Below the pieces are notes generated by a model, which saw nothing but the letters and a program-made list of their open reading frames with translations, was not told the origin of the DNA and did no database searches. Of a DNA stretch of 64,000 bases, positions 16,105 through 33,480 are shown in pieces. The translations under genes were made by a program, and so were the position numbers. Source of the stretch: an uncultured Actinomycetes bacterium. Its GTDB lineage: Bacteria > Actinomycetota > Thermoleophilia > RBG-16-64-13. Where the stretch lies: assembly GCA_963706025.1 (NCBI GenBank), contig CAVPLM010000020.1:1-64000 (forward strand), read 5' to 3'. Position 1 is the stretch's first letter, and every line of letters starts with the position of its first letter.

Positions 16105-16174
16105 CGCAGCCTGCTCGACCTATCCCTTTCGCGCTGAAGAGCGGCGGCTCTTGAGTGTATGCTGTCCCTGCCTA

Positions 16175-16192
16175 AGAACTCGTTTCAGAATG
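16175..16192 (+). repeat. dispersed 18-bp motif AGAACTCGTTTCAGAATG, copy 1
   Basis: Identical copy at 33481-33498; 16/18 copy at 34242-34259. Confidence 0.8.
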
Positions 16193-16254
16193 GAGCTCCG
16201 CCGTCAGGGACGCCCTGGGCGAGCGCGAGCCGCGCGGACACTAAGGGGGATCGT

Positions 16255-17079
16255 ATGCCGGACGCATCGCCGTGGATCACCGTTGGGGAGTTGGCTCATG
16301 CCTTCGCCCCCGACAACAACTCACCTCCCGCGACGGAAGATTTGGCCGGCAAGACGCTCACCTTCGCTTTGGAGAACGGCCAGGCCATCGAGCACCGGTT
16401 CGAGACCGGTAACAACCTTACCTGGGAGATCACACAAGGTACGGGCAAAGGACGACGCGACGACGAGACCTACCTCGCCGTGAAGATACGGGACGGGATC
16501 TACTTCGTCGACTACGTCAAGCACCAGGAACGAGCGACGAGCGTCACCCTGCTGGTCGACCTGGACCTAGCCATCTTGACCGCTTTGATCGGCCGGTTGC
16601 CGGAACCGTCGGAGACCAAGCTCACGCTGATGGAGCGGATCGCGGGGGGTAGGGAGCTGACGAGCGTGCATGCGCTCTTCCTGAGTGGCGCCGTGAACGC
16701 GCCGTTCACGGCGGAGACGCCCCGTCACGGCACCACCGACGACCTCGTGGGGAGGCGAGTGGAGTACACCTACAGCCCTACAGAGCGCTACGAACACGTC
16801 TACCTCAACGAGCGCTTCTATACGTGGCACTGCCTTCTCGGCTCAGAGAAAGGACTCGGAGACACCGACCGTTGCCACTACTACAAGCTGGCGAAAGATC
16901 TCTACCTGTTCGTGTGGAGGGAGAAGATCGTGCCCACCCTCGGGGTGGTGGTCGTCGACTTCGACAAGATGAGGACCGCGGGCAAGATCTTCGGTTACGA
17001 CGGCGGCGATCCCGGCAAGTTGTCCAATTTCCCCGTCGGCGCGCATGCGCGGCTGCTGAACGTGACCAAGCGAGACTGA
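16255..17079 (+). CDS. MoaF-like protein (tandem beta-barrel)
   Basis: WITVGELAHAF, IRDGIYFVDY, DLVGRRVEYTYSPTERYEHVYLN, WHCLLGSEKGLGDTDRC, LYLFVWREKIVPTLG. Confidence 0.8.
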   Translation: MPDASPWITVGELAHAFAPDNNSPPATEDLAGKTLTFALENGQAIEHRFETGNNLTWEITQGTGKGRRDDETYLAVKIRDGIYFVDYVKHQERATSVTLLVDLDLAILTALIGRLPEPSETKLTLMERIAGGRELTSVHALFLSGAVNAPFTAETPRHGTTDDLVGRRVEYTYSPTERYEHVYLNERFYTWHCLLGSEKGLGDTDRCHYYKLAKDLYLFVWREKIVPTLGVVVVDFDKMRTAGKIFGYDGGDPGKLSNFPVGAHARLLNVTKRD

Positions 17080-17124
17080 GCCAAGACCGAGGGCGGATCG
17101 GGCGCGACTGAGACCGGCCGCGGC

Positions 17125-17871
17125 CTACCTCGTCCCCTTTGTCGCGGCTGCCTGCGCAAGTGACCCTCCGCGAGCGCGTATCAGATCGTCGAGAAACTTG
17201 GCGTGCAGTGAGCTTCTCGGGTCGTCCGCCCAGCGGCACAGCAGTTCGAACATGGGCCGGGTCACCGTGAAGGCGAGCATCCACGGCTCGAGGTAGGTCC
17301 GCATGGCGTGATCGACGGCCCCGACCAGGGCCTGGGGCGCCTCGAGGTCATCGAAGAGCGTGGTCAGCTGCATGCAACCGGATCCGAACCGGCTGAGCAC
17401 CGGCGGCAGGTCGTCGGGACGGCTGTAGTAGGTCGCCCCCACGCTGAGCACGGAGAGCTGGTCCGGGTTCACGTAGAAGGTCACCGTGCGCAGATACTGG
17501 TACTGATCGGGGCGCAGGGGACCGACCAGCACGTGATCGTGGACGGGCTCGTAGTGCGTAGCGGAATCCAACCAGAGATCCATGAGCTCGTGCGATGACC
17601 GGAGACCTTCCTCATCGCAGAGGAACTCCACCATCTCCTGGCGCGGGCGCACGTCGACCCCCAAGAGATGACCGGCCCCGCAGCCGTGCTTCTCCCGGGT
17701 GATGTGAAGGGTCTTGCCCTGACGCCAGGACTTGAAGGAGGCGAAGACGCATTGACGAGCCCCAGGGACCACCAGCGGCTCGAAGGGGGCCGGGTCGGGC
17801 GCATCATAGAAACCTATCAGTGGGACCGCTATCGAAAGCCGCTCGAGTATCTGCGAAGGGTCAGGCTGCAT
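17125..17871 (-). CDS. DUF169-like protein
   Basis: CVF...GKTL...[34 protein letters not shown]; RBS GAAAGGAG. Confidence 0.7.
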
Positions 17872-17972
17872 GGTCGCTCCTTTCCTCACACGCGGCGTGC
17901 GCGCGATGCCTATCAGCATGCCCTATTCTAGAGGCAGTCCTCCTGGTGAGGGAAACGAACGAAGGAGGAGCC

Positions 17973-18278
17973 ATGCTCGTGGTCAACGTGCATGTCTGGG
18001 TCAAGCCGGACTACGTGGAGCAGTTCAAACTGGCGACCGGCGAGAACGCCCGCCAGAGCATCCGAGAGCCGGGAGTGGCGCGATTCGATGTCCTGCAGCG
18101 CCAGGACGATCCCACTCGCTTCCTCCTGGTGGAGGTGTACCGCACGGCCGACGCGCCTGCAGCCCACAAAGATACCGAGCACTATCAGACCTGGAGAGAC
18201 GTGGTGGAGCCGATGATGGCCGAGCCACGTACCGGCGAGAAGTACACGAACGTGTTTCCCGAGGATAAGGATTGGTGA
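17973..18278 (+). CDS. antibiotic-biosynthesis-monooxygenase (LsrG-like) protein
   Basis: [44 protein letters not shown]; RBS GGAGGAG. Confidence 0.88.
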
Positions 18279-18279
18279 G

Positions 18280-19434
18280 GTGCGCTTCGAGTTCGCGACC
18301 GCCGCCAGGATCGTCTTCGGTGCGGGCACGCTGAGAGAGGCCGCCCCGCTCGCCCGGAGCTTCGGCGAACGCGCTCTGGTGGTGACGGGTAGCGCGCCGG
18401 CCCGTGCCGAACCCTTGCTTCGCCTGCTGGAGGAACAAGGGGTGGATGCGGTGGTCTACCCGGTTGCCGGCGAGCCGGAGATCGACACGATCCGTAGCGG
18501 CGTGGAGCTGGCGAGGGCCGACCGCTGTGACCAGGTCATCGGCTTCGGCGGCGGTGCTGCCATAGATGCCGGGAAAGCCATCGCGGCAATGCTCGCGAAC
18601 CCAGGTGAGCTCCTGGATTACCTGGAGGTCGTCGGACGGGGACAGGAACTGACCAGGCCTCCAGCGCCATTCATCGCCATACCGACCACCGCCGGCACGG
18701 GTACGGAGGTCACGCGCAACGCCGTGCTCGCGGCACCGGAGCATCGCGTCAAAGTCAGCCTGCGCAGCCCCCTCATGCTGCCGAGGGTGGCCCTCGTCGA
18801 CCCGGAGCTGACGTACGACCTCCCCCCGACCCTCACCGCGACCACCGGAATGGATGCCCTGGCGCAGTTGATCGAGCCGTTCGTGAGTACCCGCGCCAAC
18901 CCCATGACCGACGCGCTGTGCGTGGAGGGGATCGAGCGGGTGGCGCGGTCGCTGCGGCGGGCTTTCTTGAACGGGCGCGATGCCGGGGCGCGCGAAGACA
19001 TGGCGGTCGCCGGCCTTTTCGGGGGGCTGGCCCTCGCGAACGCGGGGCTGGGCGCGGTCCACGGGCTCGCCGGGCCTCTGGGGGGTATGTTCCCGGTGCC
19101 TCATGGCGCCGTCTGCGCGGCCCTACTGCCCCATGTTGCGGCGGCCAACCTGCGCGCGCTCCGCGAGCGCGCGCCGCAGAGTGAGGCGCTGGACCGCTAC
19201 CAAAGGGTCGCGGCGATCGTCACCGGGCGCGCCGGCGCCGCGGCCGAGGAGGGCGTGCAGTGGCTGAGCGATCTGGTCGCCGACCTCAAGATCCCGCCAC
19301 TCTCCGGCTACGGCATAGGGCGCAACGCCGCCGACGAACTGGTCGAGAAGGCCGCGCGGTCCAGCAGCATGAAGGGCAACCCCATCACACTGACCCCCGA
19401 AGAGCTGGCCGACATCTTCGAAGCAGCGTTATGA
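18280..19434 (+). CDS. iron-containing alcohol dehydrogenase
   Basis: GFGGGAAIDAGK, IPTTAGTGTEVT, VDPELT, GMDALAQ, GLGAVHGLA, PHGAVC. Confidence 0.92.
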   Translation: MRFEFATAARIVFGAGTLREAAPLARSFGERALVVTGSAPARAEPLLRLLEEQGVDAVVYPVAGEPEIDTIRSGVELARADRCDQVIGFGGGAAIDAGKAIAAMLANPGELLDYLEVVGRGQELTRPPAPFIAIPTTAGTGTEVTRNAVLAAPEHRVKVSLRSPLMLPRVALVDPELTYDLPPTLTATTGMDALAQLIEPFVSTRANPMTDALCVEGIERVARSLRRAFLNGRDAGAREDMAVAGLFGGLALANAGLGAVHGLAGPLGGMFPVPHGAVCAALLPHVAAANLRALRERAPQSEALDRYQRVAAIVTGRAGAAAEEGVQWLSDLVADLKIPPLSGYGIGRNAADELVEKAARSSSMKGNPITLTPEELADIFEAAL

Positions 19435-20592
19435 GCCCCCGAGAGACTCGGGGCAGACGTGAACGGCCTGGGGAGGGATCCACAGCCCCACTCGTGAGCC
19501 CACGGTGAGCCCCATCCGCTGAACGTCGGGGCGCAGCACGTGCACGACGAAAAGAGGGGGCACGTCCACCTCCACTGCAGCGTGAACACTCCGGATTTGG
19601 ACGTCCCGCACCGTCCCTTCCAGCCGATTCATGGTTCTCGTGAGGCCCTGCGGGACACGTGCGGCAAGAGGCTCATCTGGATCGAGGAGGACGATCTCCT
19701 CGGCTCGAACTACCGCCACCGAGTCGTGGCCGATAGACTCATCGTACTCCGTGTCGATCCCGATCTCGATATGGCCTCCAGAACCGTCGCCCTTGGGACC
19801 GCCGACGGAGCTTTCCCGTAGTCGGATCCGCGTGCCCCCGTCCTCACGGGTGACAGAAAGGATCGGGAACACGTTGGTCATCCCGAGCAGTCGAGCAGTC
19901 TCCGCATCGATGGGCCGCTGGATCACGTCGGAGGGAATGCCGACCTGCCTTAGGTCCCCATCGATGAGGACCGCGATACGGTCACCCAGAGCGAGCGCTT
20001 CATCCAGGTCGTGGGTCACGTGCAGGACGGTCGTGCCCAATTCTCGATGCAGGCGCCTCAGCTCGATCCTCAGTTCTCGACGCGTCTTCCGATCGAGGGC
20101 GGACAGAGGCTCATCCAGCAGAAGGACGTCGGGTTCGATGGCTAGAGCTCGGGCCAGAGCGACCCTCTGCTGCTCCCCTCCCGAAAGCGTGTCCGGGTAC
20201 CGCTCGAGGAGCTGCTCGATGCCGAGGAGCGAGGCCAGCGCGACAACTCTTTCCTGGTCCACCCCGTTCCGGCCGGCGCGGGTGCGGGGCCCCCTCATGC
20301 TCAGTCCGAAGGCGATGTTCTTTGCCACGGGCAGATGCGGGAACAGGGCGTAGTCCTGGTAGACGAAACCGACGCGACGCCGCTCCGGCGGCTCTTCGGT
20401 CACATCACGATCGCCGAACCAGATGCGCCCGTCTCTTGGCTGTCGTAGCCCGGCCAGGGTCTCAAGGAGCACGGTCTTGCCCGATCCGGTGGGACCGAGA
20501 AAGACCAGGAACTCGCCTTTCTCCACCGACAGTTCTTCGATACGGAGCGAGAAGTCACCCGCGGCCACGTGGAGTCCCTCGAGCCGGATCAT
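19429..20592 (-). CDS. wtpC: tungstate/molybdate ABC transporter ATPase with C-terminal TOBE-like domain
   Basis: Walker A GPTGSGKT, FVYQDYALFPH, LSGGEQQR, LLLDEP, HVTHD; ATGA-coupled to the permease. Confidence 0.85.
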   Translation of the reverse strand: MIRLEGLHVAAGDFSLRIEELSVEKGEFLVFLGPTGSGKTVLLETLAGLRQPRDGRIWFGDRDVTEEPPERRRVGFVYQDYALFPHLPVAKNIAFGLSMRGPRTRAGRNGVDQERVVALASLLGIEQLLERYPDTLSGGEQQRVALARALAIEPDVLLLDEPLSALDRKTRRELRIELRRLHRELGTTVLHVTHDLDEALALGDRIAVLIDGDLRQVGIPSDVIQRPIDAETARLLGMTNVFPILSVTREDGGTRIRLRESSVGGPKGDGSGGHIEIGIDTEYDESIGHDSVAVVRAEEIVLLDPDEPLAARVPQGLTRTMNRLEGTVRDVQIRSVHAAVEVDVPPLFVVHVLRPDVQRMGLTVGSRVGLWIPPQAVHVCPESLGGS

Positions 20593-21392
20593 CTCCCCCC
20601 GTTCTTCTTCCGCCGAGGCAATAGGAAGATCCGGGTGACCACGAAGATCACAAGAGCCAAGACCAGCAGCAGCGCCGTTATCGGGAGCGCAGCCGACAGG
20701 CCAAAGCCGGCGAAGCGCTCGTAGACCAGCACCGAGATGACCTTGGGGTTGTAGGCGAGGATCACCACCGCGCCGAACTCGCTGATGCCCCGCGCCCACA
20801 TCAGCACCGACCCTCCGACGATCCCGCGCCAGGCAAGCGGCAGAGTCACCCGACGGAAGGCCGTCAGGGGGCTCGCCCCCAGAGTGCGGGCCACCCGCTC
20901 CAGGCGCTCGTCCACCAGGGCGATCGACTCCCGGGCCGTGTCGATCAGGATGGGGACGCTCACGAAGAGCATGGCGATGACGATACCGGCCATGTTCTCG
21001 GTGAAATACACGCCCACCGATTCCAGCGGTTCCCCGAGAAGACCCCGGCGGCCGAAAACCATGAGCAGCGCGATCCCCGCCGCCGTGTGCGGGATGATGA
21101 TGGGCAGATCGATCAGGCCCTGAAGCAGGCTCTTACCCGGGAATTCCCGGCGGGCGAGGAGGTAGGCCAGCGGCACCCCCAGCACGAGGGCGATGAGCGT
21201 CGCGATGAACGCCGCTACGAAGGTGATCCAGAGGGAGGTGAGCACGCTCCTGTCGCTCAGACCCGAGACCACCTCTCCCGGGGAAGTGCCGAGGAAAGTG
21301 GCCAGCAAGGGGAGCACAAGAAAGAGGACGACGAGAAGCCCCGCGAACGAGAAGACCCAGTCGAGTCGACTGAGGGCACGGACCCGGTTCAT
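20589..21392 (-). CDS. wtpB: tungstate/molybdate ABC transporter permease
   Basis: GVPLAYLLAR, DLPIIIPHTAAGIALL, LERVARTLGAS, WARGISEFGAVVILAY. Confidence 0.88.
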   Translation of the reverse strand: MNRVRALSRLDWVFSFAGLLVVLFLVLPLLATFLGTSPGEVVSGLSDRSVLTSLWITFVAAFIATLIALVLGVPLAYLLARREFPGKSLLQGLIDLPIIIPHTAAGIALLMVFGRRGLLGEPLESVGVYFTENMAGIVIAMLFVSVPILIDTARESIALVDERLERVARTLGASPLTAFRRVTLPLAWRGIVGGSVLMWARGISEFGAVVILAYNPKVISVLVYERFAGFGLSAALPITALLLVLALVIFVVTRIFLLPRRKKNGGR

Positions 21393-21405
21393 CCAGAGGA
21401 CCTCG

Positions 21406-22516
21406 TCAGTCGCCGGAGGTGCAGAGCGCCTTGATCGCCTCCGGCAGGGCGTCGAAGTTGTCGGCTAGGGCCGGAACGATCATGGGTTGGTAATTCTCCG
21501 CCATGATGCGTTGCCCTTCGGGACCGAGCAGGTAGGCAAGGAAGGTGGCAGCAGCCTCCGGCTCGCGGGCATTGCTGGGAATGGTGGCCCCGTAGCGTAT
21601 CGACTCTCCCGGGAACTCCGGCTTCACGCTGGCGAAGCGCTGGAAGTCGAGCTTGACCATCACCTTGGAGTACTCGTCGTTCAGTGACTCGTCGGCCAGA
21701 TTGACCGCCGCGGGAAGGGACACGTACTCCATCCCGTGCTGCTTGACCACGCTCGTGTACTCGAAGCAATAATCGATGTCGCCCGACTCGAGGAGGGGCA
21801 GCAACTGCACGCTGTAGGGCCGCATGACCAGGCTTGAGCCGCTCTTGGTCTCAAGCACTTCGGGGACCTTGATGACCGTCACTCCCTCGCTCTCGCTCAC
21901 CCGGATGGGCACCCGGAACTTGCCGCCGAAGATCTGGGCGAACAGACTTCGGCTGGTCGTAGAAGTCCTCGGCCAACTGCACCATCATCAGCGCCCGGTA
22001 CCCGTTGGCGTCCAGGCGCGGATCGGCGCAGCCGATCCGCACGTCCGGCCTCGTGATGATATCGGTCCAGTTGTCGGGGCTCATCTCCGCCGCGTAGGCG
22101 CTTTCGGGCGTGTAGGCAAGGGTCATCTCGTTGGTGGCGAAGACCGTGTACCAATCGGCGTAGGGCTTGCCGGAATCGGGATCATTCACCTCGTAGAGCA
22201 GCATCGGGATCAGCTTGTAATCGGCCGTGACCACCACGTCGGCCTGCTCGTGGAGATCACTCACCAGCCGGATGGCCTGGATGCTACCGTGCCCTTCCAT
22301 CTCGACATCGATGTCGGGATAGGCGGCCTCGAACTCCTGCTCCAGTTGTGCGAACGGGATGATGAGGCTACCGGCGAAGAGTACGCGGATGCTGGCCTTG
22401 TCCGCCCCGCCGGACGGATCGTCCGAGCAGCCCGGCGCGATCACGATCGTCGCAAGCAGAAGGGCCGCGAGAACGAGCCGACTGCGGTAACCGTACGACC
22501 CGTGCGAGGCCATCAC
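21406..22516 (-). CDS. wtpA: tungstate ABC substrate-binding lipoprotein, one frameshift near 21945
   Basis: Lipobox-like APGC, FAGSL, EGHGSIQ, ADYKLI, FATN, DPRLDANGYR (ORF 21851..22516), then RPYSVQLLPLLESGDIDY, LDFQRFA, IRYGATIP (ORF 21406..21912). Confidence 0.88.
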
Positions 22517-22533
22517 CAGGTGCCCCGATACCT

Positions 22534-23596
22534 CTACTGGGTCGGGACCAGCGCCTTGATCTCGACCACTCCGCCTATCATGTCCGTATCAGCGATCCCC
22601 TCTCCCACGAGACGAAGGGGCCAGTACTCCTCGGGAAGAGCCTCCCCGTTCATCTTGTAGGCAACGATCAGATCCTTGTTGTAATACATGGCCGCGCTGT
22701 TGACGCGTCACCGAACTCCCATCGGCAGTGAGAAGCTCGACATCGTAGCCGGCCTGGGCCAGTTCCCGGTTGTATGCCGGTCCTTCGTGCACGTTGTCGT
22801 CGTCACAACGCCCTACAAGGAGGTAGAGGGGGATACCCGTCCAGGTATTCCCTTCAGCGTCCGACCAGTCCGTGCCGTGGCAACCCTCGGCGGCCCCCGT
22901 CTCGAAGGTCGGCCGGTCCATCTCCTCGGTCACCGCTCCAGAGAGCGTCAGGGTCCACTCCTCTTCGATAGGTTTCACCTGGAGCTTCGTCACCCACTTG
23001 ACCCACCAGTGGCCGTCGGTCACCTGGTCCTTCTTCGGGCTGACGATGGCAAGCCGCAGCGTTCCCTCACCCTCGGGGTCCAACGGTTGCCCGTCTCTCT
23101 CGTAGGCGATGATCACCGTGAGCGGCCCCTCCGGATCGTTCTCGGCCCCGGTGACCATGTCGTAGGTGAGGAAATCGCCCGAGCTCAGCTGAGTGTACGA
23201 GACCGTCATCTCGTAGCCATCCTTGGCGACGATACTCACGGCCATGTCCTCGGGGAAGCCACCCACGGACGCGAAGAGATCCTCCAGCAGGACGCCCGTC
23301 ATGAGACCGGGCGGATAGATACGCCCGGTCGAGCTCTTCATGCCCCCATAGCCCTCCGTGGCCTGCATGGCCTTGATGTCATCGAGCGTGTACGAAGCCG
23401 TGCCGTCCGGGCCGACGACCTCCAGTGCAGCCTCACCCCCGTTGCCGCCAGTCGAACTCACCGATGAGCCGGAGCCGCCGGAAGTAGACGTCGTACTCTC
23501 GTCCGCTCCCCCGCAGGCAACGGCGAAGACCATAGCCATGACAAGCACGAGTGCCAAAACGCCTAGCCACCGACGGTCCGCATCCGACTTCCACAT
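22534..23596 (-). CDS. lipoprotein with two sulfite-oxidase-like (molybdopterin-binding fold) domains, one frameshift near 22706
   Basis: Lipobox AVAC, Ser/Gly linker; domain 1 TGVLLEDL...AKDGY...IIAYERDG..L...GTLRL...WVKWV; domain 2 WTGIPL...TADG, continuing in another frame as LIVAYKMNGEALPEEYWPLRLVG...TQ* (TAG 22534-22536). Confidence 0.75.
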
Positions 23597-23742
23597 GCTC
23601 CAGCTCCTTGACGCGTGCAGTAAGGTGTGAGACGGTTACTTATACCATTGTATGGCCTCAAATGCCACATAACCGGGAATAGGCTGCCGAACTCGTGGGC
23701 AGGATAGCCGGTCGCAAGGAGAGGGAGAGCGCATGGGGGTCT

Positions 23743-24595
23743 TTGTCGAAGAACCACGTGAGATTCGGGCCTGTCTTGGCTCTGCTCATGGTCGTCTCGC
23801 TGATCGTGACACTGAGCGCATGCGGGGGAACCGACGAATCCGCTTCCACCTCCCGCTCAAGCGCCGCGTCCGAGCGACAGCGGCCAGACGAGCAGCACGA
23901 TCGCCGAGTCCACAACCGCAAGCACGCTCTCCCTGCATGACAGGATCCAGCAAGAGCAGGCCGGCAGCACCACTATCCCTTCCGTGACTACGACGGCCGA
24001 GGAATCTGCCACGACGACGGTCGGCGCGACTACCACCACGGTGCATGGCGCCACTACCACTGCCCAGCCCACCAGCACCACGGGCACCACGGCCAGGAGC
24101 ACAACGACCACCGTCAAGCCCACTACCACCACGGCCAAGGGCCCAGTCGTCCTGAGGGTGACCGGGCCCTCGGGGACGGTGGAACTCAGCATGGCCGAAC
24201 TCAAGGCCATGTGGGCGACCTCAGGCTACGGCGGCTGGAAGAACCAATTGGGCAACATCACCGCTCCCGTTTCCTGGAAGGGCGTGGCTCTGGCCAATCT
24301 CATGGACCTCGTGGGTGGAGGGAGCTCGGTCCTGGTGCTCGCCTCCGATGGCTACGAGCAGCCGCTCTCTGCCGGCGAGCTGGGTGGTGCAGTGACCACG
24401 TACGACCCTGCCACCGGCGCGGAGATATCCAGTATCAGCGGCAGCATCACCGTCATTGTCGCCTACGCCAAGGGCGGAGGCGCTATCACCGGTGAAGAGG
24501 GCCCGCTCCGGATCGCGTTTGTGAGCCCTGAGAAGGACCAGGTCACCGACAGCGCCATGTGGGTGCGGATGGTGACCCGGATCACGGTGAGATGA
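23743..24595 (+). CDS. lipoprotein with Thr-rich stalk and one molybdopterin-binding-like domain; frameshifts at ~23860-23980, start uncertain
   Basis: Signal and lipobox LIVTLSAC in frame 23695; TTTT repeats and GYGGWKN...WKGV.L...ASDGY...YDPATG...VAY...GPLRIAFV...DQVT...WV in ORF 23984..24595. Confidence 0.7.
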
Positions 24596-24612
24596 GAGTG
24601 AAAGGAATGCCG

Positions 24613-25754
24613 ATGAAAACAAGGACACTGCTTGTGACACTGTTGCTCGCTGCTCTGGTTGTCTTCGCCGTCGCGGTACCCGCCCTTGCCGCTTGGTTCC
24701 CAGACACCGACGGGCACCCGTATGAAGCGAGCATCCTCACTCTGGCCGACAGGGAAATCATCGGGGGCTACACCAACGGCAACTTCGGTCCCGACGACCC
24801 GGTCATCCGCCAGCAGTTTGCCAAGATGATAGTGCTCACCCTGGATCTGCCTGTGACAGAGAGCGACTGGCCGAACCCTGCCGTGCCTTTTGTCGACCTG
24901 GACTCCGACGATCTCACCAAGCTCTATCCTCACGAGTATGTCGCAGTCTGCGCGCTCAACAACATCACCAGAGGAACGGACGCCACCCATTTCTCGCCTT
25001 TGCGCAAGATCACCCGGCAGCAGGTCATCACCATGGTGGTGCGGGCGGCCGACAACCTGACCCCCGGCACCCTCACTGCCGTGCCCGCGGGCTGGAATGA
25101 CGGGGTGCTGAACTATTCCGACCCTGATCACGGGGCCAACATCAGGAAGGCCGAGTACAACGGTCTCTTAGACGGCATCTGGGCCTCGACCACCATCCCT
25201 ACTCCCGGACTGGCCGGCTGGGACACCACCAAGAACGCTACTCGCGGTGAAGTTGCCGAGATTCTTGCCCAACTCCTCTACCGTGCCGGGACTGTGCTCA
25301 CCGTCACCGGATCGACGGGTGCCCAGGAGTTCACCATGGACGACATCAAGGCCCTTCCCGCCGTGGAGGGCTACGGGGGCTGGAAGAACAGACTGGGCAA
25401 CGTCACCGGGCCCCTCATCTGGAAGGGGGTGTCCGATCCAGACCCTCATGGGCATGGTCGGGGGAGGGACCACGGTGACCGTGGTCGCCTCCGACGGATG
25501 GAGCTGGAATTCGACGCGAGCTACCTATTCCGATCGAAGTCTACGGCGCATTCGAGATGTACGACCCGGCCACCGGTGCGACCATCACCGAGATCGAAGG
25601 AGAGATCACCATGATCCTGGCTTACGCCATGGACGGAGGGCCGCTGCCGTCCGAGGATGGTGCTTTGCGTATCGCCTTCGTCAGTCCCAACGACGATCAG
25701 GTGACCTGGAGCGGCAGGTGGGTGAGCCAGGTGGCTCGCATCGAGGTGGAATAG
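24613..25754 (+). CDS. SLH-domain surface protein with C-terminal molybdopterin-binding-like domain; frameshifts near 25432 and 25530
   Basis: Signal peptide, SLH motifs (IIGGYTNGNFGPDDPVIRQQFA, FSPLRKITRQQV, ATRGEVA), then GYGGWKNRLG...WKGV / ASDG / YDPATG...LAYAMDG...GALRIAFV...WVSQV. Confidence 0.8.
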
Positions 25755-25799
25755 CGGAACCGTCCGGACCAAAGGCAAACGTGGAGCGAAAGGAACAAG

Positions 25800-26796
25800 A
25801 TGAAGAAGCGTCTGGTTGTTGGGGCTGCTGATCGCAATGGCGCTGTTGTTGGCGCTGGCGGTGCCGGCCTCGGCCGCGTCACAGTTCACGGACGTCGATG
25901 GACCCTACGCGGCCGACATCGATAACCTGGCTTGGTGGGGCATCGTCAGCGGGTATCCGGACCATACCTTCAAGCCCGACAACCTACTGTTGCGCCAGCA
26001 GTTCGCCAAGATGGCCGATCTCACTGCAGGTTATCCCGTGACCACCGCCGACGTCTGCACCTTCAAAGATGCGCCGGCCATCGACCCGGCCAATCCTCTG
26101 TATCCCGGCAGTTACGTGGCCGTCGCCGCCGAGAACGGCATCATTCTGGGGTATCCGGACAACACCTTCGGCTTCCTCGACAATGTCACCCGCCAGCAGG
26201 TGATCAGCGTGGTGGTACGCGCGGCAGGAGCGACGCTGAGGGAAGCACCCGCCGGCTGGCAGGGCATCTTCGACTACTCCGATCCGACCCACGGCCAGAA
26301 CATCAAGAAGGCTGAGTACAACGGCCTGCTGGCCGGCATCGAGGATATCTACAATTGGGACCCCGCCCTCAAGGCCACTCGTGGCGAGGCGTCCTACCTG
26401 CTGAATCAACTGCTCGGCAAGATCGGCAACCCGGCCGAGGGGGCCAGCGGGTCGATCAAGGTGAGCGGCATGGTGGACCACCCCATGGGACTGACCGCCG
26501 GTCGACTCCAGAACATGGGGCCGGTGACCCTGACGCTCGAACACCCCAAGAACGGGCCCACGGAGTACACAGGGGTGCGATTCAGCGTGCTCTTTGAGAA
26601 ACTAGGGGTGCAGGCCGGGGCCGTCGACATGGTCGCCGTCGCAAGCGACGGCTACAAGTTCACCATCAAGGTGGCCGACATCAAAGCCTCCGCCGACGCG
26701 ATGCTCGCCATCGATGGCAGCAAGCTCAATCTGGCGATACCCGGGCAATCGAGCAAGGCCTGGGTCAAGGACGTGGCGTCGCTCGAATTCAAGTAG
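25800..26796 (+). CDS. SLH-domain surface protein with a short C-terminal molybdopterin-binding-like domain; frameshift in a G run near 25822
   Basis: ATG 25800 MKKRLVV after AAAGGA; SLH motifs (GIVSGYPDHTFKP, GIILGYPDNTF, ATRGEA); IKVSGMV...YTGVRF...ASDGY...WVKDV. Confidence 0.8.
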
Positions 26797-26817
26797 CAGC
26801 CGACAGGCGCAGCCTAG

Positions 26818-26864
26818 AACGCGAGGGGCGCCCCGAGCAAGCTCGGGGCGCCCCTCGCGTTTTT
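26818..26864 (+). terminator. intrinsic terminator
   Basis: Perfect 21-bp inverted repeat 26818-26838 / 26841-26861 running into TTTTT, just after the SLH gene stop. Confidence 0.85.
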
Positions 26865-26961: not shown

Positions 26962-27534
26962 ATGAGCATCAAGGGGACCAGGACCGAACAGAACCTGCTG
27001 AAAGCATTCGCGGGCGAAAGCCAGGCCCGCAACCGCTACACCTTCTTTGCCAGCAAAGCCAGGAAGGAAGGATTCGAGCAGATCGCCGCGATCTTCCTCG
27101 AGACGGCCGACAATGAGAAGGAGCACGCCCAGGTGTTCTTCGACTATCTAGAGGGCGGGCCGACGGAGATCACGGCTACCTATCCGGCCGGCAAGACCGC
27201 TACGACCGCCGAGAACCTTCTCGCTGCCGCCAACGGCGAGAAGGAGGAGTGGGGCGAGCTGTATCCGGGCTTCGCCACGGTGGCCGAGGAGGAGGGCTTC
27301 GCCGACGTAGCCACCTCGTTCCGAGAGCTTGCCGAGGTCGAGGAACAGCACGAGCTTCGCTACCGCAAGCTACTCGCCAACGTCAAGAACGATCGTGTCT
27401 TCTCGCGGGACACCGTGGTCAAGTGGCATTGCCGCAACTGCGGCTACGTCCACGAAGGCATATCGGCTCCCGAGGTCTGCCCCGCCTGCAAGCACGCCCA
27501 GGCATACTTCGAGCTCTGGGCCGAGACCTACTGA
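26962..27534 (+). CDS. rbr: rubrerythrin
   Basis: NLLKAFAGESQARNRY, ETADNEKEHA, GEKEE, EEQHE, C-terminal rubredoxin-like CRNC...CPAC. Confidence 0.96.
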   Translation: MSIKGTRTEQNLLKAFAGESQARNRYTFFASKARKEGFEQIAAIFLETADNEKEHAQVFFDYLEGGPTEITATYPAGKTATTAENLLAAANGEKEEWGELYPGFATVAEEEGFADVATSFRELAEVEEQHELRYRKLLANVKNDRVFSRDTVVKWHCRNCGYVHEGISAPEVCPACKHAQAYFELWAETY

Positions 27535-27559
27535 TCGGCGCTCCCGGCAGGGCTCGCCG

Positions 27560-27610
27560 GCTTGAGGGGCGCCCGGCTGCCGCGGCGTGGCCGCCGGGCG
27601 CCCCTCAAGC
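27560..27610. repeat. intergenic stem-loop (18-bp perfect inverted repeat)
   Basis: GCTTGAGGGGCGCCCGGC 27560-27577 / GCCGGGCGCCCCTCAAGC 27593-27610. Confidence 0.8.
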
Positions 27611-27631
27611 TTGCATTCTAAGGAGAGACCA

Positions 27632-28126
27632 GTGAAGGCCGTCGTCGTCTACGAATCGCACTGGGGCAACACCGCGGCGATAGCCCGCGCCATCGCGGAA
27701 GGTCTGGGACCCGAGGCGCAGGCGCTCTCCACCGCCGAGGCTACCTCCGACGCGCTGGCCGAGGCCGATCTGCTTGTGGCCGGAGCGCCCGTCATCGCCT
27801 TCGGGCTTGCCACCGAGAAGACCCTGGAAGGCATCAGGGTCAACCCCGGCAAGGCACCGGCGCCGCCGGATCTATCTCACCCGGCGATGCGGACGTGGCT
27901 GGAAGCGCTGCCGACCGGAGAGGGCCGGTTCGCGGCTTTCGAGACGCGCGTGCGTGGTCCGTTCGGACATGCCACGTCGGCCATCGCCGAAAGGCTGGAG
28001 CGAGCGGGATACCGTTCGGCCGCCAAACCGGCCGGTTTCATCGTCAAGGGCCGGTACGGACCGCTTCGCGACGGGGAGCTGGAACGAGCCCGCTCGTGGG
28101 GCGCCGAACTGGCCGCCGCCGACTAG
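27632..28126 (+). CDS. flavodoxin-family protein
   Basis: VVYESHWGNTAAIA, LLVAGAP, AAFETR, GPLRDGELERARSWG; GTG start after AAGGAG. Confidence 0.88.
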   Translation: MKAVVVYESHWGNTAAIARAIAEGLGPEAQALSTAEATSDALAEADLLVAGAPVIAFGLATEKTLEGIRVNPGKAPAPPDLSHPAMRTWLEALPTGEGRFAAFETRVRGPFGHATSAIAERLERAGYRSAAKPAGFIVKGRYGPLRDGELERARSWGAELAAAD

Positions 28127-28243
28127 CGCGACCCCGACCCCGGTAGAGCAAGGGGACCCACCCCACAGTGGTCGCCGCACCGCGACTGGTCGCATCACCA
28201 TCGCTGCTACAGGCACGGCAGGAGGACGGCGACGGGTCGGGTG

Positions 28244-31057
28244 TCAGTTTGATGGAATGCGGCCGGCGGCACTGGGTAGAGGCGATGCGCCCGCTCCGCC
28301 CGAGAGACAGCTGACGAACACCCTCACGACGTCCGGGTCGAACTGCGCGCCGCTCCCCTTGATGAGCTCTGAGATGGCCTCCCGGCCTCCGAGAGCCGCG
28401 CGATACGGGCGATCGGTGGTCATGGCCGAGTAGGCGTCGGCTACCCCGAGAATCCTTCCAAGCAGGGGGATACCCACGCCGCGCAGCTGCGCAGGATACC
28501 CCGAGCCGTCCCATCGTTCGTGATGCGAGACGACCGCTTCGCGCACCTCGGTCAGATCGGGTAGGTGCTGGGCGATCATCATGCTGCCGGTAAGCGAGTG
28601 CTGGTTCATGAATTCGACTTCTTCGCGGGTGAGCGCCCCGGGCTTGCGCAGAATGCGGTCGGGCACGCCGATCTTCCCCACGTCGTGCAGGAGAGCTGCC
28701 ACCCGCAGCATCTCCTGCCGCTCCTTGGCGAAGCCGAGAGAGCGCGCGACAGCACCGCTCAGCTCTGCCACCTGGGCGGAGTGCCGCCGCGTGTAGTGGT
28801 CCTTGTTGTCCACGGCGCTGACCAGTGCGTCCAGCGTGCTGAAGGCTCGGGAGTCCACGGCCTCGCCGCCGACCGGCTCGCTTCGCACGGTGACGGTGTC
28901 GCCCCCCCAACGCTTGGACTCGTAGAGGTTGGCGTCGGCTATGGCGATGAGTGACGCCGCGTCCTGCCCATCCTCTGGGAAGGAAGCGGCGCCGAAGCTC
29001 ATGCGCAAGGGGATCGAGGCGCCATCGGGAGCGACGTAGGGCAGGGAGTTCAAGGCGACCCGCAGGTGGTCGGCCAAGGTACGCGCACCGGCCCGATAGG
29101 TCTCCGGCAGGATCAGGACGAACTCGTCGCCACCGAAGCGGCCGACGAAGTCGGAGACGCGGCTCCGGTGCTGGAGGAGACCGGCTACCCGTTTGATGAT
29201 CTCGTCGCCAACGGGGTGCCCGTAGGTGTCGTTGAAGAGCTTGAAGTTGTCGATGTCGGTGATGAGGATCGAGAAGGTCCCCTGATAGCGTCTTGCCCGC
29301 CCGACCTCGATCTCGAGTTGCTCGAGAGACCTGCGCCGGTTGTAGAGCCCACTGAGGGAGTCGATCTCGCCCAGGGCCTTGATCTCTTCGTACAGGCGCG
29401 TGTTCTTGAGAGCCTGAGCGACCTGGCTGGCGAAGAGCAAGATGGTCGACCTTCTGTCGCTGGAGAACTTGCTGGTTCTCACAGATGCCGAGATGATGAG
29501 ACCGACCGGAGCGTCATCAGAGTACAGCGGAACCAGCGCAAGCGAGTGGAAACCACCCAGATCGGGCGAAGATCGGCCGAAGAGACGTTCTTGCTCGCTC
29601 GGCGCCAGTTCAGAGACGGACTCGATGAATATGGCGGGAGAGCCACTGAAGACGGCCCTTAGAAGCCCGTTCGCCTCCTGATCGAGCACTCCGTCCGCCT
29701 GGTCGCAACCGAACAGTTTGGGCAAAGTGGCGTAGCCGGGCTTCTGGCGGAAGAACGCCCGCAGCCCCTGTAGCTGACCTTCATCAGTATGCAGCCGGAG
29801 CAACCACATCTCGTCCGCCTCGAATATGTCCAGGGCGACGTGCTCCAGCTGAGCCAGCGCATCCGCTATCTCCAAGCTGCCCCCGAGTGAGGCGCTCGCT
29901 TCTTGGAGGTGCTGAAGATGGCGGTGGGCCTTCTCCAGATCGCGGTGCCTGCCTTGCAGTTCGTCCAGGGTCTCGGACAGGCTCCGGGCTTGTTTCTCCT
30001 GCTGGGTGCGGATGTTTTCGAGCTGGGAGAAGCTCGAGTTGATCGTACGAGCCAGAACCGCCAGTTCGTCCTTTCCTTCGACTGCGAGAGGAGCGAACTC
30101 GCCCTCGCCCGGCTTGACGTGCTTGACTTGCGCGGTCAGTTGCGCGAGCCTTCGAAACAGCGACCTTTCCAGGAGTCTATTGGCAGCCACACCGAACAGT
30201 GCCGCCACCCCGATCAGAGCCAGCATGAAGTAGCGCACGCTCTTGGTGCCCTGCTCGTAGACGATCCTTGGCGTCTCCACCTTCAGCGCCAGCGTGGGCT
30301 CCCCAAACACGTCGTCTAGCAGTGAGTAACCTGCCACCATACCGGTGCCGAGTGGGGTCACGATTGCTTCGGCCACCGGGGCGTCCGAAGAAGCTGCCCG
30401 CTGGAATTCGGCAGGAAGATCCTCAGCAGACAGAGGGAGAAATGCCAGCGACAGCCTTGTCTGGCTCGAGAGCTCGGCTACTCGCGCGGCGTCCAGCCAC
30501 CTGCCCATGATGAAGGCTCCGCGGATTGGGCCTTCGCTCTGGCTGGTAAGTATCGGTTGGGAGTCGATGAGCATCGGGCCTTCGGGCAGCATCAAGATAC
30601 CCGAGAGTCTGCTATCCACCCCGCTGTGACGGACGAGAGGGCTTTCCGCCGTCAGAAGCGCGGTGAAGCCCGCCGGCAGTGGAGTCGCTCGTGAGCCTTC
30701 TAGATCGAAGCCTCGACCCCAGACGATGGTCCCATCGTTCCGGACGAAAGCCGCCAGATTGGCCTTGAAACCGGTGAACAGCGAGTCCGCCAGATTAACC
30801 TGGACATAGGTCTCGTTCTTGTCCTTCACAAAGGCGACCGTGTCGTCCCAGGAGGAGTAACTGTAAACTGCGGCGCTCAGCTCCCCCAGGTTCTGCGCCA
30901 CTGCCGCCCGCGCGCGCTTCACCTGATCCTGCATCTCCGCCGTCTCCACGCTGGCAAAGCCGCGCATGAAGACGGTCTGAGAGACGGCGAAGATCACCGC
31001 CACCGCGATGATCAGGGTGCATCCCATGAGCAGGTAGGTCTTCCGGCGTAGCGACAA
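28244..31057 (-). CDS. membrane sensor: CHASE4-HAMP-GAF-GGDEF-HD-GYP (diguanylate cyclase / phosphodiesterase)
   Basis: Two TM segments around YSSWDDT (CHASE4); GKDELAVLARTIN (HAMP); LALVPL...LFASQVA (GAF); DIDNFK..ND..GH, RFGGDEF; LLHDVGKIG, HHERWDGSGYP. Confidence 0.92.
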   Translation of the reverse strand: MSLRRKTYLLMGCTLIIAVAVIFAVSQTVFMRGFASVETAEMQDQVKRARAAVAQNLGELSAAVYSYSSWDDTVAFVKDKNETYVQVNLADSLFTGFKANLAAFVRNDGTIVWGRGFDLEGSRATPLPAGFTALLTAESPLVRHSGVDSRLSGILMLPEGPMLIDSQPILTSQSEGPIRGAFIMGRWLDAARVAELSSQTRLSLAFLPLSAEDLPAEFQRAASSDAPVAEAIVTPLGTGMVAGYSLLDDVFGEPTLALKVETPRIVYEQGTKSVRYFMLALIGVAALFGVAANRLLERSLFRRLAQLTAQVKHVKPGEGEFAPLAVEGKDELAVLARTINSSFSQLENIRTQQEKQARSLSETLDELQGRHRDLEKAHRHLQHLQEASASLGGSLEIADALAQLEHVALDIFEADEMWLLRLHTDEGQLQGLRAFFRQKPGYATLPKLFGCDQADGVLDQEANGLLRAVFSGSPAIFIESVSELAPSEQERLFGRSSPDLGGFHSLALVPLYSDDAPVGLIISASVRTSKFSSDRRSTILLFASQVAQALKNTRLYEEIKALGEIDSLSGLYNRRRSLEQLEIEVGRARRYQGTFSILITDIDNFKLFNDTYGHPVGDEIIKRVAGLLQHRSRVSDFVGRFGGDEFVLILPETYRAGARTLADHLRVALNSLPYVAPDGASIPLRMSFGAASFPEDGQDAASLIAIADANLYESKRWGGDTVTVRSEPVGGEAVDSRAFSTLDALVSAVDNKDHYTRRHSAQVAELSGAVARSLGFAKERQEMLRVAALLHDVGKIGVPDRILRKPGALTREEVEFMNQHSLTGSMMIAQHLPDLTEVREAVVSHHERWDGSGYPAQLRGVGIPLLGRILGVADAYSAMTTDRPYRAALGGREAISELIKGSGAQFDPDVVRVFVSCLSGGAGASPLPSAAGRIPSN

Positions 31058-31106
31058 GAGGACTCCAATGAGGAACAGCCAATGACCGATGCTTCGCTCA
31101 CAAGCG

Positions 31107-31146: not shown

Positions 31147-31184
31147 GATTGGCATGAGCAGCCATCCCCGCCATAATGAGCAAA

Positions 31185-33468: not shown

Positions 33469-33480
33469 GTTCCACTCCTT

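What the first reader, a model, noticed from the sequence alone, without database searches (positions are those of the whole stretch)
19429..26864. wtpABC with an array of surface-displayed, Cys-less molybdopterin-binding-like domains: candidate W/Mo or metallopterin scavenging system
Seen: four exported proteins are arranged divergently around 23597-23740, and the first is co-oriented 17 bp upstream of wtpA-wtpB-wtpC. Two are lipoproteins with Ser/Thr stalks and two are signal peptide + 3xSLH proteins. Together they carry five copies of one domain: (W/Y)xGVxL...A(S/K)DGY...IxAY..(D/N)G..L...GxLR...WVxxV. Established: this pattern is the skeleton of the sulfite-oxidase/MsrP molybdopterin-binding fold, whose enzymes use a Cys in the N-terminal part as Mo ligand and need a Tat signal to export cofactor-loaded protein. 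Seen: four copies have no Cys at all, three of them showing GYGGxKxxxG in that region, and the signal peptides look Sec/lipoprotein-type, with no SRRxFLK. Inference: these are apo, non-catalytic capture proteins placed at two depths of the envelope (membrane and wall). They may bind tungstate/molybdate or released pterin cofactor and hand it to the ABC transporter, like a NEAT/Isd relay for W/Mo. I know of no characterised system like this.
Basis: partly seen in the sequence, partly recalled or inferred. Interest (0 to 1): 0.82.

Follow-up and report, generated by a model that had tools for sequence, protein, structure and literature searches.

The report
Surface sulfite-oxidase-like partners of tungstate transporter
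A tungstate/molybdate uptake operon is always accompanied by exported, probably non-enzymatic proteins built from a degenerate sulfite-oxidase fold, which points to an undescribed helper for acquiring tungsten or molybdenum.

Summary
wtpC-wtpB-wtpA (19429-22516, minus strand) is preceded, 17 bp upstream, by a lipoprotein with two sulfite-oxidase (SUOX)-like domains. A divergent operon encodes a stalked lipoprotein and two SLH proteins with one such domain each. Independent contigs lack four of them, so they are probably assembly errors.

An AlphaFold model (pLDDT 96.6) matches PruR, a Cys-less periplasmic pterin binder, ahead of the sulfite oxidases. Four domains have no Cys. The fifth (d2) keeps a Cys-His on the canonical Mo-ligand column. 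Signals are lipoprotein/Sec type.

The link to WtpABC is strong:
- In 301 genomes of the class, 48 have both, 6 the domain only, 1 WtpA only.
- The two lie within 5 kb in 46 of those 48.
- d1-d2 sits directly upstream of wtpA in 26 of 26 wtpA-bearing loci from two phyla.
- A d1-like gene sits upstream of wtpA in 18 of 19 further metagenome loci.
- One natural WtpA-d1-d2 fusion exists.

Best reading: a non-catalytic binding partner of WtpA. The ligand (oxyanion or pterin-type) is unresolved. My searches found no paper describing this.

The parts
19429..20595 (-). wtpC, the ABC ATPase with a TOBE domain
   Evidence: NCBIfam WtpC is the best hit at 305.2 bits (below the 440 cut-off). Pfam finds ABC_tran and TOBE. 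It gives a single HSP against L007, so no frameshift.
20589..21392 (-). wtpB, the permease
   Evidence: NCBIfam WtpB is the best hit at 293.5 bits (cut-off 340). It is 94-97% identical to L006 and L007.
21406..22516 (-). wtpA, the substrate-binding lipoprotein, broken by a 1-nt insertion at 21945
   Evidence: TIGR03730 scores 182 and 108.1 bits on the two halves (cut-off 242.75). The two HSPs are in different frames. X1 contigs leave out 1 base at 21945.
22534..23596 (-). lipo1, a lipoprotein with domains d1 (22976-23437, Cys-less, GYGGMKSSTG) and d2 (22537-22975, GCHG Cys-His). It has a frameshift at 22704.
   Evidence: X1 contigs leave out 1 base at 22704. The intact homolog P0116 scores 42.7 bits on PF00174.
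23604..23670 (.). Conserved block in the divergent intergenic region. It includes TGGTATAAG on the minus strand (23639-23647), which resembles an extended -10.
   Evidence: The block recurs in 10 of 13 related loci. The core pattern is unique in the genome. No Rfam family matches it.
23733..24595 (+). lipo2, a lipoprotein with a Thr/Ser stalk of about 110 aa and one Cys-less domain (24131-24592). It has frameshifts at 23747 and 23873.
   Evidence: P0001 is an intact 286-aa copy, 98% identical. X1 contigs leave out 1 base at both sites. The AF2 model has pLDDT 96.6.
24592..25754 (+). SLH1, with a signal peptide, SLH repeats and one Cys-less domain (25291-25751). It has at least 2 frameshifts in 25435-25540.
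   Evidence: Pfam SLH scores 61.6 bits. The pieces lie in three frames.
25800..26796 (+). SLH2, with a signal peptide (probable frameshift near 25820), SLH repeats and a short divergent domain (26440-26793, EHPK motif, Cys-less)
   Evidence: Pfam SLH scores 51.9 bits and PF00174 22.2 bits. hhalign to canonical SUOX gives 99.1%, E 7.5e-19.
26844..26857 (+). Terminator-like hairpin with a T run after SLH2
   Evidence: This is a consensus scan only.

Best explanation
The SUOX-like proteins are non-catalytic ligand-binding proteins on the outer face of the membrane that act as accessory partners of the WtpABC tungstate/molybdate importer.

The core is a membrane-anchored d1 domain. In bacteria it is d1 plus a Cys-His-bearing d2. 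It is encoded directly upstream of wtpA and works beside the WtpA binding lipoprotein.

I think it most likely captures or conditions a W/Mo species (tungstate, molybdate or a thio form) in the pocket inherited from the oxyanion-handling SUOX active site, and passes it to WtpA. In this lineage a stalked lipoprotein and two SLH wall-anchored proteins add three more copies further out in the envelope.

Shown: the fold, the loss of enzyme hallmarks, Sec/lipoprotein export, and the genetic coupling to wtpABC, including one fusion. Inferred: binding of a W/Mo species, contact with WtpA, and hand-over.
For: Fold.
- The AF2 model of the lipo2 domain has pLDDT 96.6.
- Its top Foldseek hits are PruR entries (7kom, 7kos, 7rkb; E 3e-7 to 2e-6; TM normalised to the target 0.65-0.71), followed by sulfite oxidases.
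- The two-domain homolog P0116 gives the same ranking.

Loss of enzyme hallmarks.
- Four of five domains have no Cys.
- The canonical PGY..K..KW segment is replaced.
- 0 of 31 family members have a strict Tat motif and 28 of 31 have a lipobox.
- The genome's true SUOX proteins score 85-148 bits on PF00174, against about 20 bits here.

Coupling to WtpABC.
- 26 of 30 loci found with the domain carry wtpA. In all 26, d1-d2 is upstream of wtpA and co-oriented with it, in both Actinomycetota and Chloroflexota.
- Class survey of 301 genomes: both 48, domain only 6, WtpA only 1, neither 246. The two lie within 5 kb in 46 of the 48.
- A Chloroflexota class: 6 of 6 d1-d2 genomes have WtpA, adjacent in 5.
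- Of 80 metagenome loci found with a stretch of a large surface protein named from a Methanomicrobiales MAG, 19 hold WtpA. In 18 of those 19 a d1-like gene lies 60-207 bp upstream on the same strand.
- Only wtpABC is conserved in the neighbourhood.

Fusion. P0244 has one lipoprotein signal, then WtpA (293.5 bits, cut-off 242.75), then d1, then d2.

Complex prediction, WtpA with d1-d2: weak support.
- Score 0.55, best of 3 controls 0.00.
- The mark was reached by 58 of 80 solved complexes and 2 of 110 mismatched pairs.
- At 0.60 or under it was reached by only 7 of the 80 solved complexes and by both mismatches that passed.
- The runs agree in at least 88% of contacts, and the partner's pLDDT is at least 84.

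Demand for W/Mo. The genome holds about 17 full AOR loci and more than 30 Mo/W-bisPGD loci. MoaC and MoeA are present, so metal rather than pterin is the likelier need.
Against: - No ligand was or could be tested.
- The nearest solved relative binds pterins, not oxyanions. d1 keeps counterparts of PruR's pterin-contact residues: ASDGY aligns to ALNDY.
- 22 of 28 WtpA-bearing genomes of the Chloroflexota class lack d1-d2 at the thresholds used. Only 10 candidates per genome were scored there. So WtpABC works without the partner.
- Six genomes have the domain without a WtpA hit.
- The fusion is one cluster, seen on 2 short contigs.
- The complex score is only a weak pass.
- Related genomes are not independent, and the cassette may travel as a unit.
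Confidence: 0.5

Rival explanations
1. The domains bind a pterin-type ligand, as PruR does. Either they salvage released molybdopterin or W/Mo cofactor, so that the metal ends up with WtpABC, or they sense a pterin and modulate WtpA or WtpB.
For: - PruR entries are the top structural hits and the top profile hits (E 0.038 and 0.1).
- The ASDGY motif aligns to PruR's ALNDY, that is N102 and Y104.
- An Asn-to-Asp change at position 102 occurs in PruR groups C and D (passage read in PMC13259868).
- d1 keeps the aromatic residues while d2 keeps the Mo-ligand Cys column, like two halves of a Moco site.
- The hairpin is long rather than truncated as in PruR, which leaves room for a larger pterin.
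Against: - The conserved partner is an oxyanion importer with an equivalog-level WtpA. No DcpA-type partner is present. The nearby GGDEF/HD-GYP gene is conserved only in L006, L007 and L025.
- The genome makes its own molybdopterin: MoaC and MoeA are present.
- The Tyr and Trp are general SUOX-fold residues, so their conservation may be structural.
Confidence: 0.25
2. At least d2 is a real extracytoplasmic Mo/W enzyme of the MsrP or sulfite-dehydrogenase type, whose gene simply rides with the transporter of its metal.
For: - The invariant Cys of d2 (C239 in P0116) aligns on the canonical Mo-ligand Cys column (hhalign 98.0%, E 1e-12).
- PF00174 scores above threshold in intact homologs: 42.7 bits for P0116 and 86.6 bits for P0218.
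- Automatic annotation calls these proteins molybdopterin-dependent oxidoreductases.
Against: - None of 31 members has a strict Tat motif, and 28 of 31 are lipoproteins. As far as I recall, every known exported Moco enzyme uses Tat.
- d2 lacks the DGY Tyr and the C-terminal Trp.
- The archaeal-type loci have d1 only, with no d2, next to wtpA.
- No electron-transfer partner gene is conserved nearby.
Confidence: 0.1
3. The locus is decaying in this organism. The frameshifts are real and the genes are pseudogenes.
For: At least six frameshifts lie within 21.9-25.8 kb. There are none in about 15 kb of flanking syntenic genes. The four laid sites are not in homopolymer runs.
Against: - Contigs of run X1 leave out exactly one base at 21945, 22704, 23747 and 23873.
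- Intact lipo2 proteins of 286 aa, clustering at 90% identity or more, come from two other assemblies.
- Apart from the indels, the pieces keep 73-96% identity to relatives.
- Other patches with several frameshifts occur elsewhere in this MAG.
- X1 may be the source sample, so it is not fully independent.
Confidence: 0.1

Closest known systems
PruR, the periplasmic pterin-binding protein of Agrobacterium tumefaciens and other Proteobacteria (PDB 7kos, 7kou, 7kom, 7rkb, 7kp2)
   Same: - A small domain with a degenerate SUOX fold.
- Sec-exported, with no Mo-ligating Cys and no predicted catalysis.
- Encoded directly upstream of the membrane protein it serves.
- Best structural match, with the DGY/NDY motif aligned.
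   Different: - PruR pairs with the DcpA diguanylate cyclase-phosphodiesterase, whereas this family pairs with wtpABC.
- PruR has a PW motif on a truncated hairpin (residues 66-74). Here the hairpin is a long, invariant GYGGWKNxLGN.
- This family carries an extra YDPxTG insert.
- It comes as lipoprotein, SLH and multi-repeat forms, and occurs in Actinomycetota, Chloroflexota and archaeal-type loci.
SUOX-family Moco enzymes: sulfite oxidase, SorA/SorT, SoxC, MsrP/YedY (Pfam PF00174)
   Same: The fold and profile match. d2 keeps a Cys on the Mo-ligand column.
   Different: - No Cys in 4 of 5 copies.
- The active-site PGY..K..KW segment is replaced.
- No Tat signal.
- No dimerisation or heme partner.
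- Pfam scores are about 20 bits, against 85-148 bits for the genome's true members.
Surface capture relays that feed ABC importers, such as the Isd NEAT heme relay of Gram-positives (recalled, not tested here)
   Same: Several copies of one binding domain sit on lipoprotein and wall-anchored proteins next to an ABC importer operon. This is likeness in layout only.
   Different: The fold and the cargo are different. No transfer between copies is shown. The wall-anchored copies are lineage-specific.
WtpABC of Pyrococcus furiosus and other archaea
   Same: The transporter genes here belong to this family.
   Different: No accessory SUOX-like protein is mentioned in the passages I read of PMC6147048, nor in the listings.

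Membership tests
SUOX / Oxidored_molyb (PF00174) Moco enzymes | Fold and profile similarity to the Moco-binding domain | tested here: met
   hhalign to a canonical profile built from 27 ORFs of relatives gives 97.7-99.1%. Foldseek matches sulfite oxidases at E 1e-5 to 1e-3. The window copies score only 19.5-23.4 bits on Pfam (cut-off 24), while intact P0116 scores 42.7 bits.
SUOX / Oxidored_molyb (PF00174) Moco enzymes | Conserved Mo-ligating Cys on the beta-hairpin | tested here: not met
   There is no Cys at all in lipo1-d1, lipo2, the SLH1 pieces or the SLH2 domain. Only d2 has a Cys aligned on that column.
SUOX / Oxidored_molyb (PF00174) Moco enzymes | Tat signal on exported members (established knowledge, recalled) | tested here: not met
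   0 of 31 d1-d2 members have a strict Tat motif and 2 of 31 a loose one. 28 of 31 have a lipobox.
SUOX / Oxidored_molyb (PF00174) Moco enzymes | Bound Moco and oxidoreductase activity | not testable with these tools
   Needs purified protein.
PruR-type pterin-binding proteins | Small exported SUOX-like domain without the Mo-ligating Cys | tested here: met
PruR-type pterin-binding proteins | PW motif on a truncated hairpin (from PMC11194511 passages) | tested here: not met
   The hairpin is about 16 residues with an invariant GYGGWKNxLGN and has no PW.
PruR-type pterin-binding proteins | Pterin-contact residues N102, Y104 and W160 | tested here: inconclusive
   D73 and Y75 align to N102 and Y104. 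W144 sits where the canonical KW Trp lies, and its equivalence to W160 is inferred. No model coordinates were available for a superposition.
PruR-type pterin-binding proteins | Two-gene operon with a DcpA-type GGDEF/EAL protein | tested here: not met
   The conserved neighbour is wtpABC. The GGDEF/HD-GYP gene at 28244-31057 is full length only in L006 and L007 and partial in L025.
WtpABC tungstate/molybdate ABC transporter | WtpA equivalog model TIGR03730 (cut-off 242.75 bits) | tested here: met
   The window's two halves score 182 and 108.1 bits across the frameshift. 40 of the 49 WtpA-positive genomes of the class exceed the cut-off.
WtpABC tungstate/molybdate ABC transporter | WtpB and WtpC equivalog models | tested here: inconclusive
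   They are the best hits but fall below the cut-offs: WtpB 293.5 of 340 and WtpC 305.2 of 440.

The most novel reading that the evidence does not exclude
This is the first dedicated extracytoplasmic receptor system for tungsten/molybdenum acquisition, shared by methanogen-type archaea, Chloroflexota and Actinomycetota. d1 keeps the pterin-contact half of a Moco site and d2 keeps the metal-ligating Cys-His half. Together the pair may seize released W/Mo-pterin cofactor, or thio- or oxo-tungstate, outside the cell and feed the metal to WtpA. The stalked and SLH-anchored copies would form an outward relay.
Probability: 0.22. Interest if true: 0.9.

Novelty: new variant of a known kind. Interest (0 to 1): 0.74.

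Why it matters
Uptake of tungsten and molybdenum is described as needing only three components: a binding protein, a permease and an ATPase. A conserved fourth, surface-exposed partner would change that picture for WtpABC. In the passages of PMC6147048 that I read, WtpABC is the most common Mo/W transporter in archaea.

The partner is built from the very fold that normally holds the Mo cofactor. It would be a second example, after PruR, of the SUOX fold being reused as a non-catalytic binder.

It could also explain how anaerobes with very large W/Mo enzyme sets obtain scarce metal. This genome has about 17 AOR and more than 30 bisPGD loci.

A homolog is on record for a named species, Longilinea arvoryzae (WP_075072338.1), so the idea can be tested directly.

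Tried and rejected
- Riboswitch. An Rfam scan of the whole window at gathering thresholds and of 23400-23900 at E up to 1 found nothing, so there is no Moco riboswitch.
- Regulon. The conserved intergenic core TTATAYCAT(N0-1)TGTA occurs only at this locus in the genome.
- PruR-DcpA analogy. The GGDEF/HD-GYP gene downstream is not conserved beyond close relatives, so I rejected it.
- More WtpA fusions. None of 10 long representatives tested carries WtpA. The 729-aa d1-d2-WtpA open frame in L026 keeps an internal WtpA signal peptide. I treat it as a doubtful read-through, not a fusion.
- Mapping the Cys by sequence search of the PDB. The alignments covered only the C-terminal part. I used hhalign against relatives' canonical proteins instead.
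- A first attempt to pick canonical ORFs by length chose the wrong frames. It was redone, where 2 of 29 loci were dropped because no matching ORF was found.
- Alignment A1 was too diverse for the search for related loci, so I used A2.
- No model coordinates reached the script box, so no residue-level superposition was possible.
- Read laying: no near-identical contig covers 25435-25711, so the SLH1 and SLH2 frameshifts remain unchecked. Run X2 added little.
- The ESM Atlas only repeated the PF00174 label.
- Supplements of the papers were closed. PruR residue tables there may bear on the residue mapping.

Full report
**What is in the window.**
On the minus strand lie wtpC (19429-20595), wtpB (20589-21392) and wtpA (21406-22516). 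NCBIfam names WtpC, WtpB and WtpA as the best families: 305.2 bits, 293.5 bits, and 182 plus 108.1 bits on two halves. Seventeen bp upstream of wtpA, on the same strand, a lipoprotein gene (lipo1, 22534-23596) encodes two domains, d1 and d2.

Across a 136-bp divergent spacer sits a second operon:
- lipo2 (23733-24595), a lipoprotein with a Thr/Ser stalk of about 110 residues and one domain;
- SLH1 (about 24592-25754), with one domain;
- SLH2 (about 25800-26796), with one domain.

Pfam SLH scores 61.6 and 51.9 bits for the two SLH proteins. A terminator-like hairpin follows at 26844-26857. The window is G000:C20:1-64000 in a 3.66-Mb, 30-contig assembly that is 92% complete with 7% contamination.

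The reading frames are interrupted at these places:
- wtpA at 21945;
- lipo1 at 22704;
- lipo2 at 23747 and 23873;
- SLH1 at least twice between 25435 and 25540;
- probably the SLH2 signal peptide near 25820.

Genes that are syntenic with relatives L006 and L007 on both sides give single HSPs, so the breaks are clustered. These genes are 16255-19431, wtpC, wtpB and 26962-35195.

Contigs of public run X1 hold 0.59 of the sampled words. X1 may be the source sample. Its contigs leave out exactly one base at 21945, 22704, 23747 and 23873. Intact 286-aa lipo2 proteins, clustering at 90% identity or more, come from two other assemblies.

The four sites are not in homopolymer runs. Other patches with several frameshifts exist elsewhere in this assembly, for example an AOR gene at C25:32063-32662. 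I read the breaks as local assembly errors, with about a 10% chance that they are real. The SLH1 and SLH2 sites were not covered by near-identical contigs.

**The five domains are one family with a sulfite-oxidase-like fold.**
lipo2's domain finds lipo1-d1 at E 2.7e-31 and the SLH1 pieces at E 1.6e-19 and 1.9e-13. It finds nothing else in the genome.

An AlphaFold2 model of the lipo2 domain, built on a 59-row alignment, has pLDDT 96.6. Foldseek against the PDB ranks the PruR 'putative pterin binding proteins' first. The entries are 7kom, 7kos, 7rkb, 7kou and 7kp2, at E 2.9e-7 to 4.3e-5 and TM normalised to the target of 0.65-0.71. Next come chicken and plant sulfite oxidase, SoxCD, SorT and the Thermus enzyme. 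A model of the intact two-domain homolog P0116 (pLDDT 86.1) gives the same order, and E. coli YedY is also listed.

I built a canonical SUOX profile from 27 PF00174 ORFs of related genomes. Against it, hhalign gives:
- d1: 99.1%, E 1e-17;
- d2: 98.0%, E 1e-12;
- lipo2 type: 97.7%, E 7e-12;
- SLH2 type: 99.1%, E 7.5e-19.

The window's copies reach only 19.5-23.4 bits on PF00174 (cut-off 24). The genome's four ordinary SUOX proteins reach 85-148 bits.

**Enzyme hallmarks are missing.**
- lipo1-d1, lipo2, the SLH2 domain and the readable SLH1 pieces contain no Cys.
- Three copies carry GYGGxKxxxG on the hairpin where enzymes carry the Mo-ligating Cys.
- The canonical PGY..K..KW segment is replaced by QVTDxxxWVK.
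- A family-specific insert with an invariant YDPxTG is present.
- d2 differs. An invariant Cys-His (GCHG) falls on the canonical Cys column, and Asp-Asp and His are also invariant. It lacks the DGY Tyr and the C-terminal Trp.
- Of 31 d1-d2 family members, 28 have a lipobox, none has a strict Tat motif and 2 have a loose twin-arginine core.

As far as I recall, exported Moco enzymes fold around their cofactor in the cytoplasm and use Tat. These proteins are therefore unlikely to be loaded enzymes.

In PMC11194511 I read passages. They describe PruR as follows:
- it is a periplasmic, Sec-exported protein with a degenerate SUOX fold;
- the Mo-ligating Cys is replaced by Trp on a truncated hairpin;
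- a pterin ring is sandwiched between Y104 and W160 and hydrogen-bonded to N102;
- PruR controls the diguanylate cyclase-phosphodiesterase DcpA, which is encoded next to it.

A profile of the lipo2-type domain hits PruR chains first in the PDB (E 0.038 and 0.1). It aligns ASDGY to PruR's ALNDY, so D73 and Y75 stand at the places of N102 and Y104. A 2026 review says that N102 is Asp in PruR groups C and D (passages read, PMC13259868). The hairpin here is long and invariant rather than truncated. These proteins are therefore relatives in kind of PruR, not members of its family.

**The link to WtpABC is the strongest result.**
- *Loci from genome contigs.* A search of species-representative genomes with the domain returned 30 loci from Actinomycetota and Chloroflexota MAGs. 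The titles name Thermoleophilia and Gaiellales on one side, and Anaerolineae, Dehalococcoidia and 'Chloroflexia' on the other. wtpA lies within the fetched flanks in 26 of the 30. The four exceptions are L009, L011, L017 and L022. L011 is cut 72 bp from the match, and L009 and L017 are parts of one contig. In all 26, a d1-d2 gene lies directly upstream of wtpA on the same strand. In seven Chloroflexota-type loci a third domain sits between d2 and wtpA. Of seven neighbouring genes of the window that I tested, none is conserved beyond five loci.
- *Survey of the class.* In 301 genomes of the window's class, the domain (E up to 1e-5) is in 54 and WtpA (TIGR03730, E up to 1e-20) in 49. Both are in 48, the domain alone in 6, WtpA alone in 1, and neither in 246. 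All carriers fall in two of twelve families. In 46 of the 48 the two lie within 5 kb on one contig. The other two have them on different short contigs.
- *A Chloroflexota class.* In 201 genomes, d1-d2 is in 6 and WtpA in 28. All 6 have WtpA and it is adjacent in 5. The other 22 WtpA genomes lack d1-d2 at these thresholds, and only 10 candidates per genome were scored. So the partner is not obligatory for WtpABC.
- *Archaeal-type loci.* A stretch of a large PKD-bearing surface protein, named by its source as from a Methanomicrobiales MAG, found 80 metagenome loci. Nineteen hold WtpA. In 18 of the 19, a d1-like gene lies 60-207 bp upstream on the same strand. It encodes a protein of about 190-200 aa with a signal, lipobox or TM anchor and one d1-like domain.
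- *Minimal unit.* The minimal conserved unit is therefore an anchored d1 plus WtpABC. d2, lipo2 and the SLH proteins are additions.

**Fusion and predicted contact.**
P0244 (670 aa, seen on two metagenome contigs) has a single lipoprotein signal. It is followed by a WtpA that passes the equivalog cut-off (293.5 against 242.75 bits), then d1, then d2. Ten other long family members carry no WtpA.

A complex prediction of WtpA (from L007) with d1-d2 (P0116) gave weak support:
- score 0.55, best of 3 controls 0.00;
- the mark was reached by 58 of 80 solved complexes and 2 of 110 mismatched pairs;
- at 0.60 or under it was reached by only 7 of the 80 solved complexes and by both mismatches that passed;
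- the runs agree in at least 88% of contacts, and the partner's pLDDT is at least 84.

**Context in the genome.**
The assembly holds about 17 full-length AOR-type loci and more than 30 Mo/W-bisPGD loci, one of them in the window at 12043-14193. MoaC and MoeA are present. ModA-type binding proteins exist elsewhere. The SUOX-like proteins go with WtpABC, not with ModABC. The organism can make its own pterin and needs much metal.

**Family size.**
A profile of d1-d2 finds 1540 representatives at E up to 0.001, 902 at 1e-10 and 408 at 1e-30, among 1.84 billion. Many are very long multi-repeat proteins of up to 3139 aa.

**Interpretation.**
- Shown: the fold, the loss of catalytic hallmarks, Sec/lipoprotein and SLH display, and tight genetic coupling to wtpABC across distant lineages, including one fusion.
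- Inferred: the proteins bind a ligand and cooperate physically with WtpA.
- Oxyanion reading (about 0.5): the ligand is a W/Mo oxyanion or thio form. The arguments are the partner transporter, the metal demand, the presence of pterin synthesis, and the oxyanion-handling ancestry of the SUOX pocket.
- Pterin-type reading (about 0.25): this includes salvage of released cofactor. It is kept alive by the PruR likeness, the conserved DGY and Trp, and the complementary features of d1 and d2.
- Enzyme reading (about 0.1): a true enzyme role for d2.

**Literature.**
Searches for 'wtpA' with 'sulfite oxidase' (6 papers), for 'tungstate' with 'ABC transporter' and 'SUOX' (1 paper), for 'wtpABC' (21 papers) and for 'PruR' with 'pterin' (32 papers) listed no title on such a partner. 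The passages I read in PMC6147048 name only ModABC, WtpABC and TupABC. Supplements were closed.

**Verdict.**
This is a new variant of the non-catalytic SUOX-fold binders, coupled to a tungstate/molybdate importer, and its ligand is still unknown.

Noticed in passing
window 21900-25830: At least six single-base insertions cluster in wtpA and the four surface-protein genes, while about 15 kb of flanking syntenic genes are intact. The four sites that could be laid are not in homopolymer runs. Similar patches with several frameshifts occur elsewhere in the assembly, for example at C25:32063-32662.
   Followed up: partly
window 23604-23670: A block of about 70 bp in the divergent spacer is conserved in 10 of 13 related loci. 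It runs CTCCTTGACG ... TGTGAGACGG ... CTTATACCAT(A)TGTA ... CAAAT..CACAT, with TGGTATAAG on the minus strand. It may hold overlapping promoters or an operator. The core pattern is unique in the genome.
   Followed up: partly
whole genome G000: The W/Mo enzyme load is very large for a 3.7-Mb assembly: about 17 full AOR-type loci and more than 30 Mo/W-bisPGD oxidoreductase loci.
   Followed up: no
window 28244-31057 (minus): A 937-aa CHASE4-GAF-GGDEF-HD-GYP protein lies 1.5 kb from SLH2. It recalls the PruR-DcpA pairing but is conserved only in L006, L007 and L025.
   Followed up: yes
window 12043-14193 and 16159-17919: A Mo/W-bisPGD oxidoreductase (Fe4S4, Molybdopterin and Molydop_binding domains), a MoaF-family protein and a DUF169 protein lie upstream of the locus. 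MoaF and DUF169 are syntenic only in close relatives.
   Followed up: partly
L026:9884-12070: A 729-aa open frame runs through d1-d2 into WtpA but keeps WtpA's own signal peptide and lipobox inside it. It is either a read-through caused by an assembly error or an odd fusion.
   Followed up: partly
P0240, P0243 and P0247-P0330: d2-like repeats with C-x3-GH in place of GCHG are strung 3-9 times in surface proteins of 1000-3139 aa. Some carry PKD domains. Two are named by their sources as from Methanomicrobiales and Alkaliphilus MAGs.
   Followed up: partly
L066, L080, L107, L118, L131 and others: Small anchored proteins of 186-202 aa with a single d1-like domain sit directly upstream of wtpA in archaeal-type metagenome loci. 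Their motifs include GYGGFFSTVG, APDGY, YEQDG and TEGxxWVKWV.
   Followed up: partly
lipo1 residues 67-138; P0246, P0362, P0272: There are weak NCBIfam hits (23-51 bits, cut-off 300) to NF041762, 'GEGP motif-containing diheme protein', over the d1 region. That family may contain a related domain.
   Followed up: no
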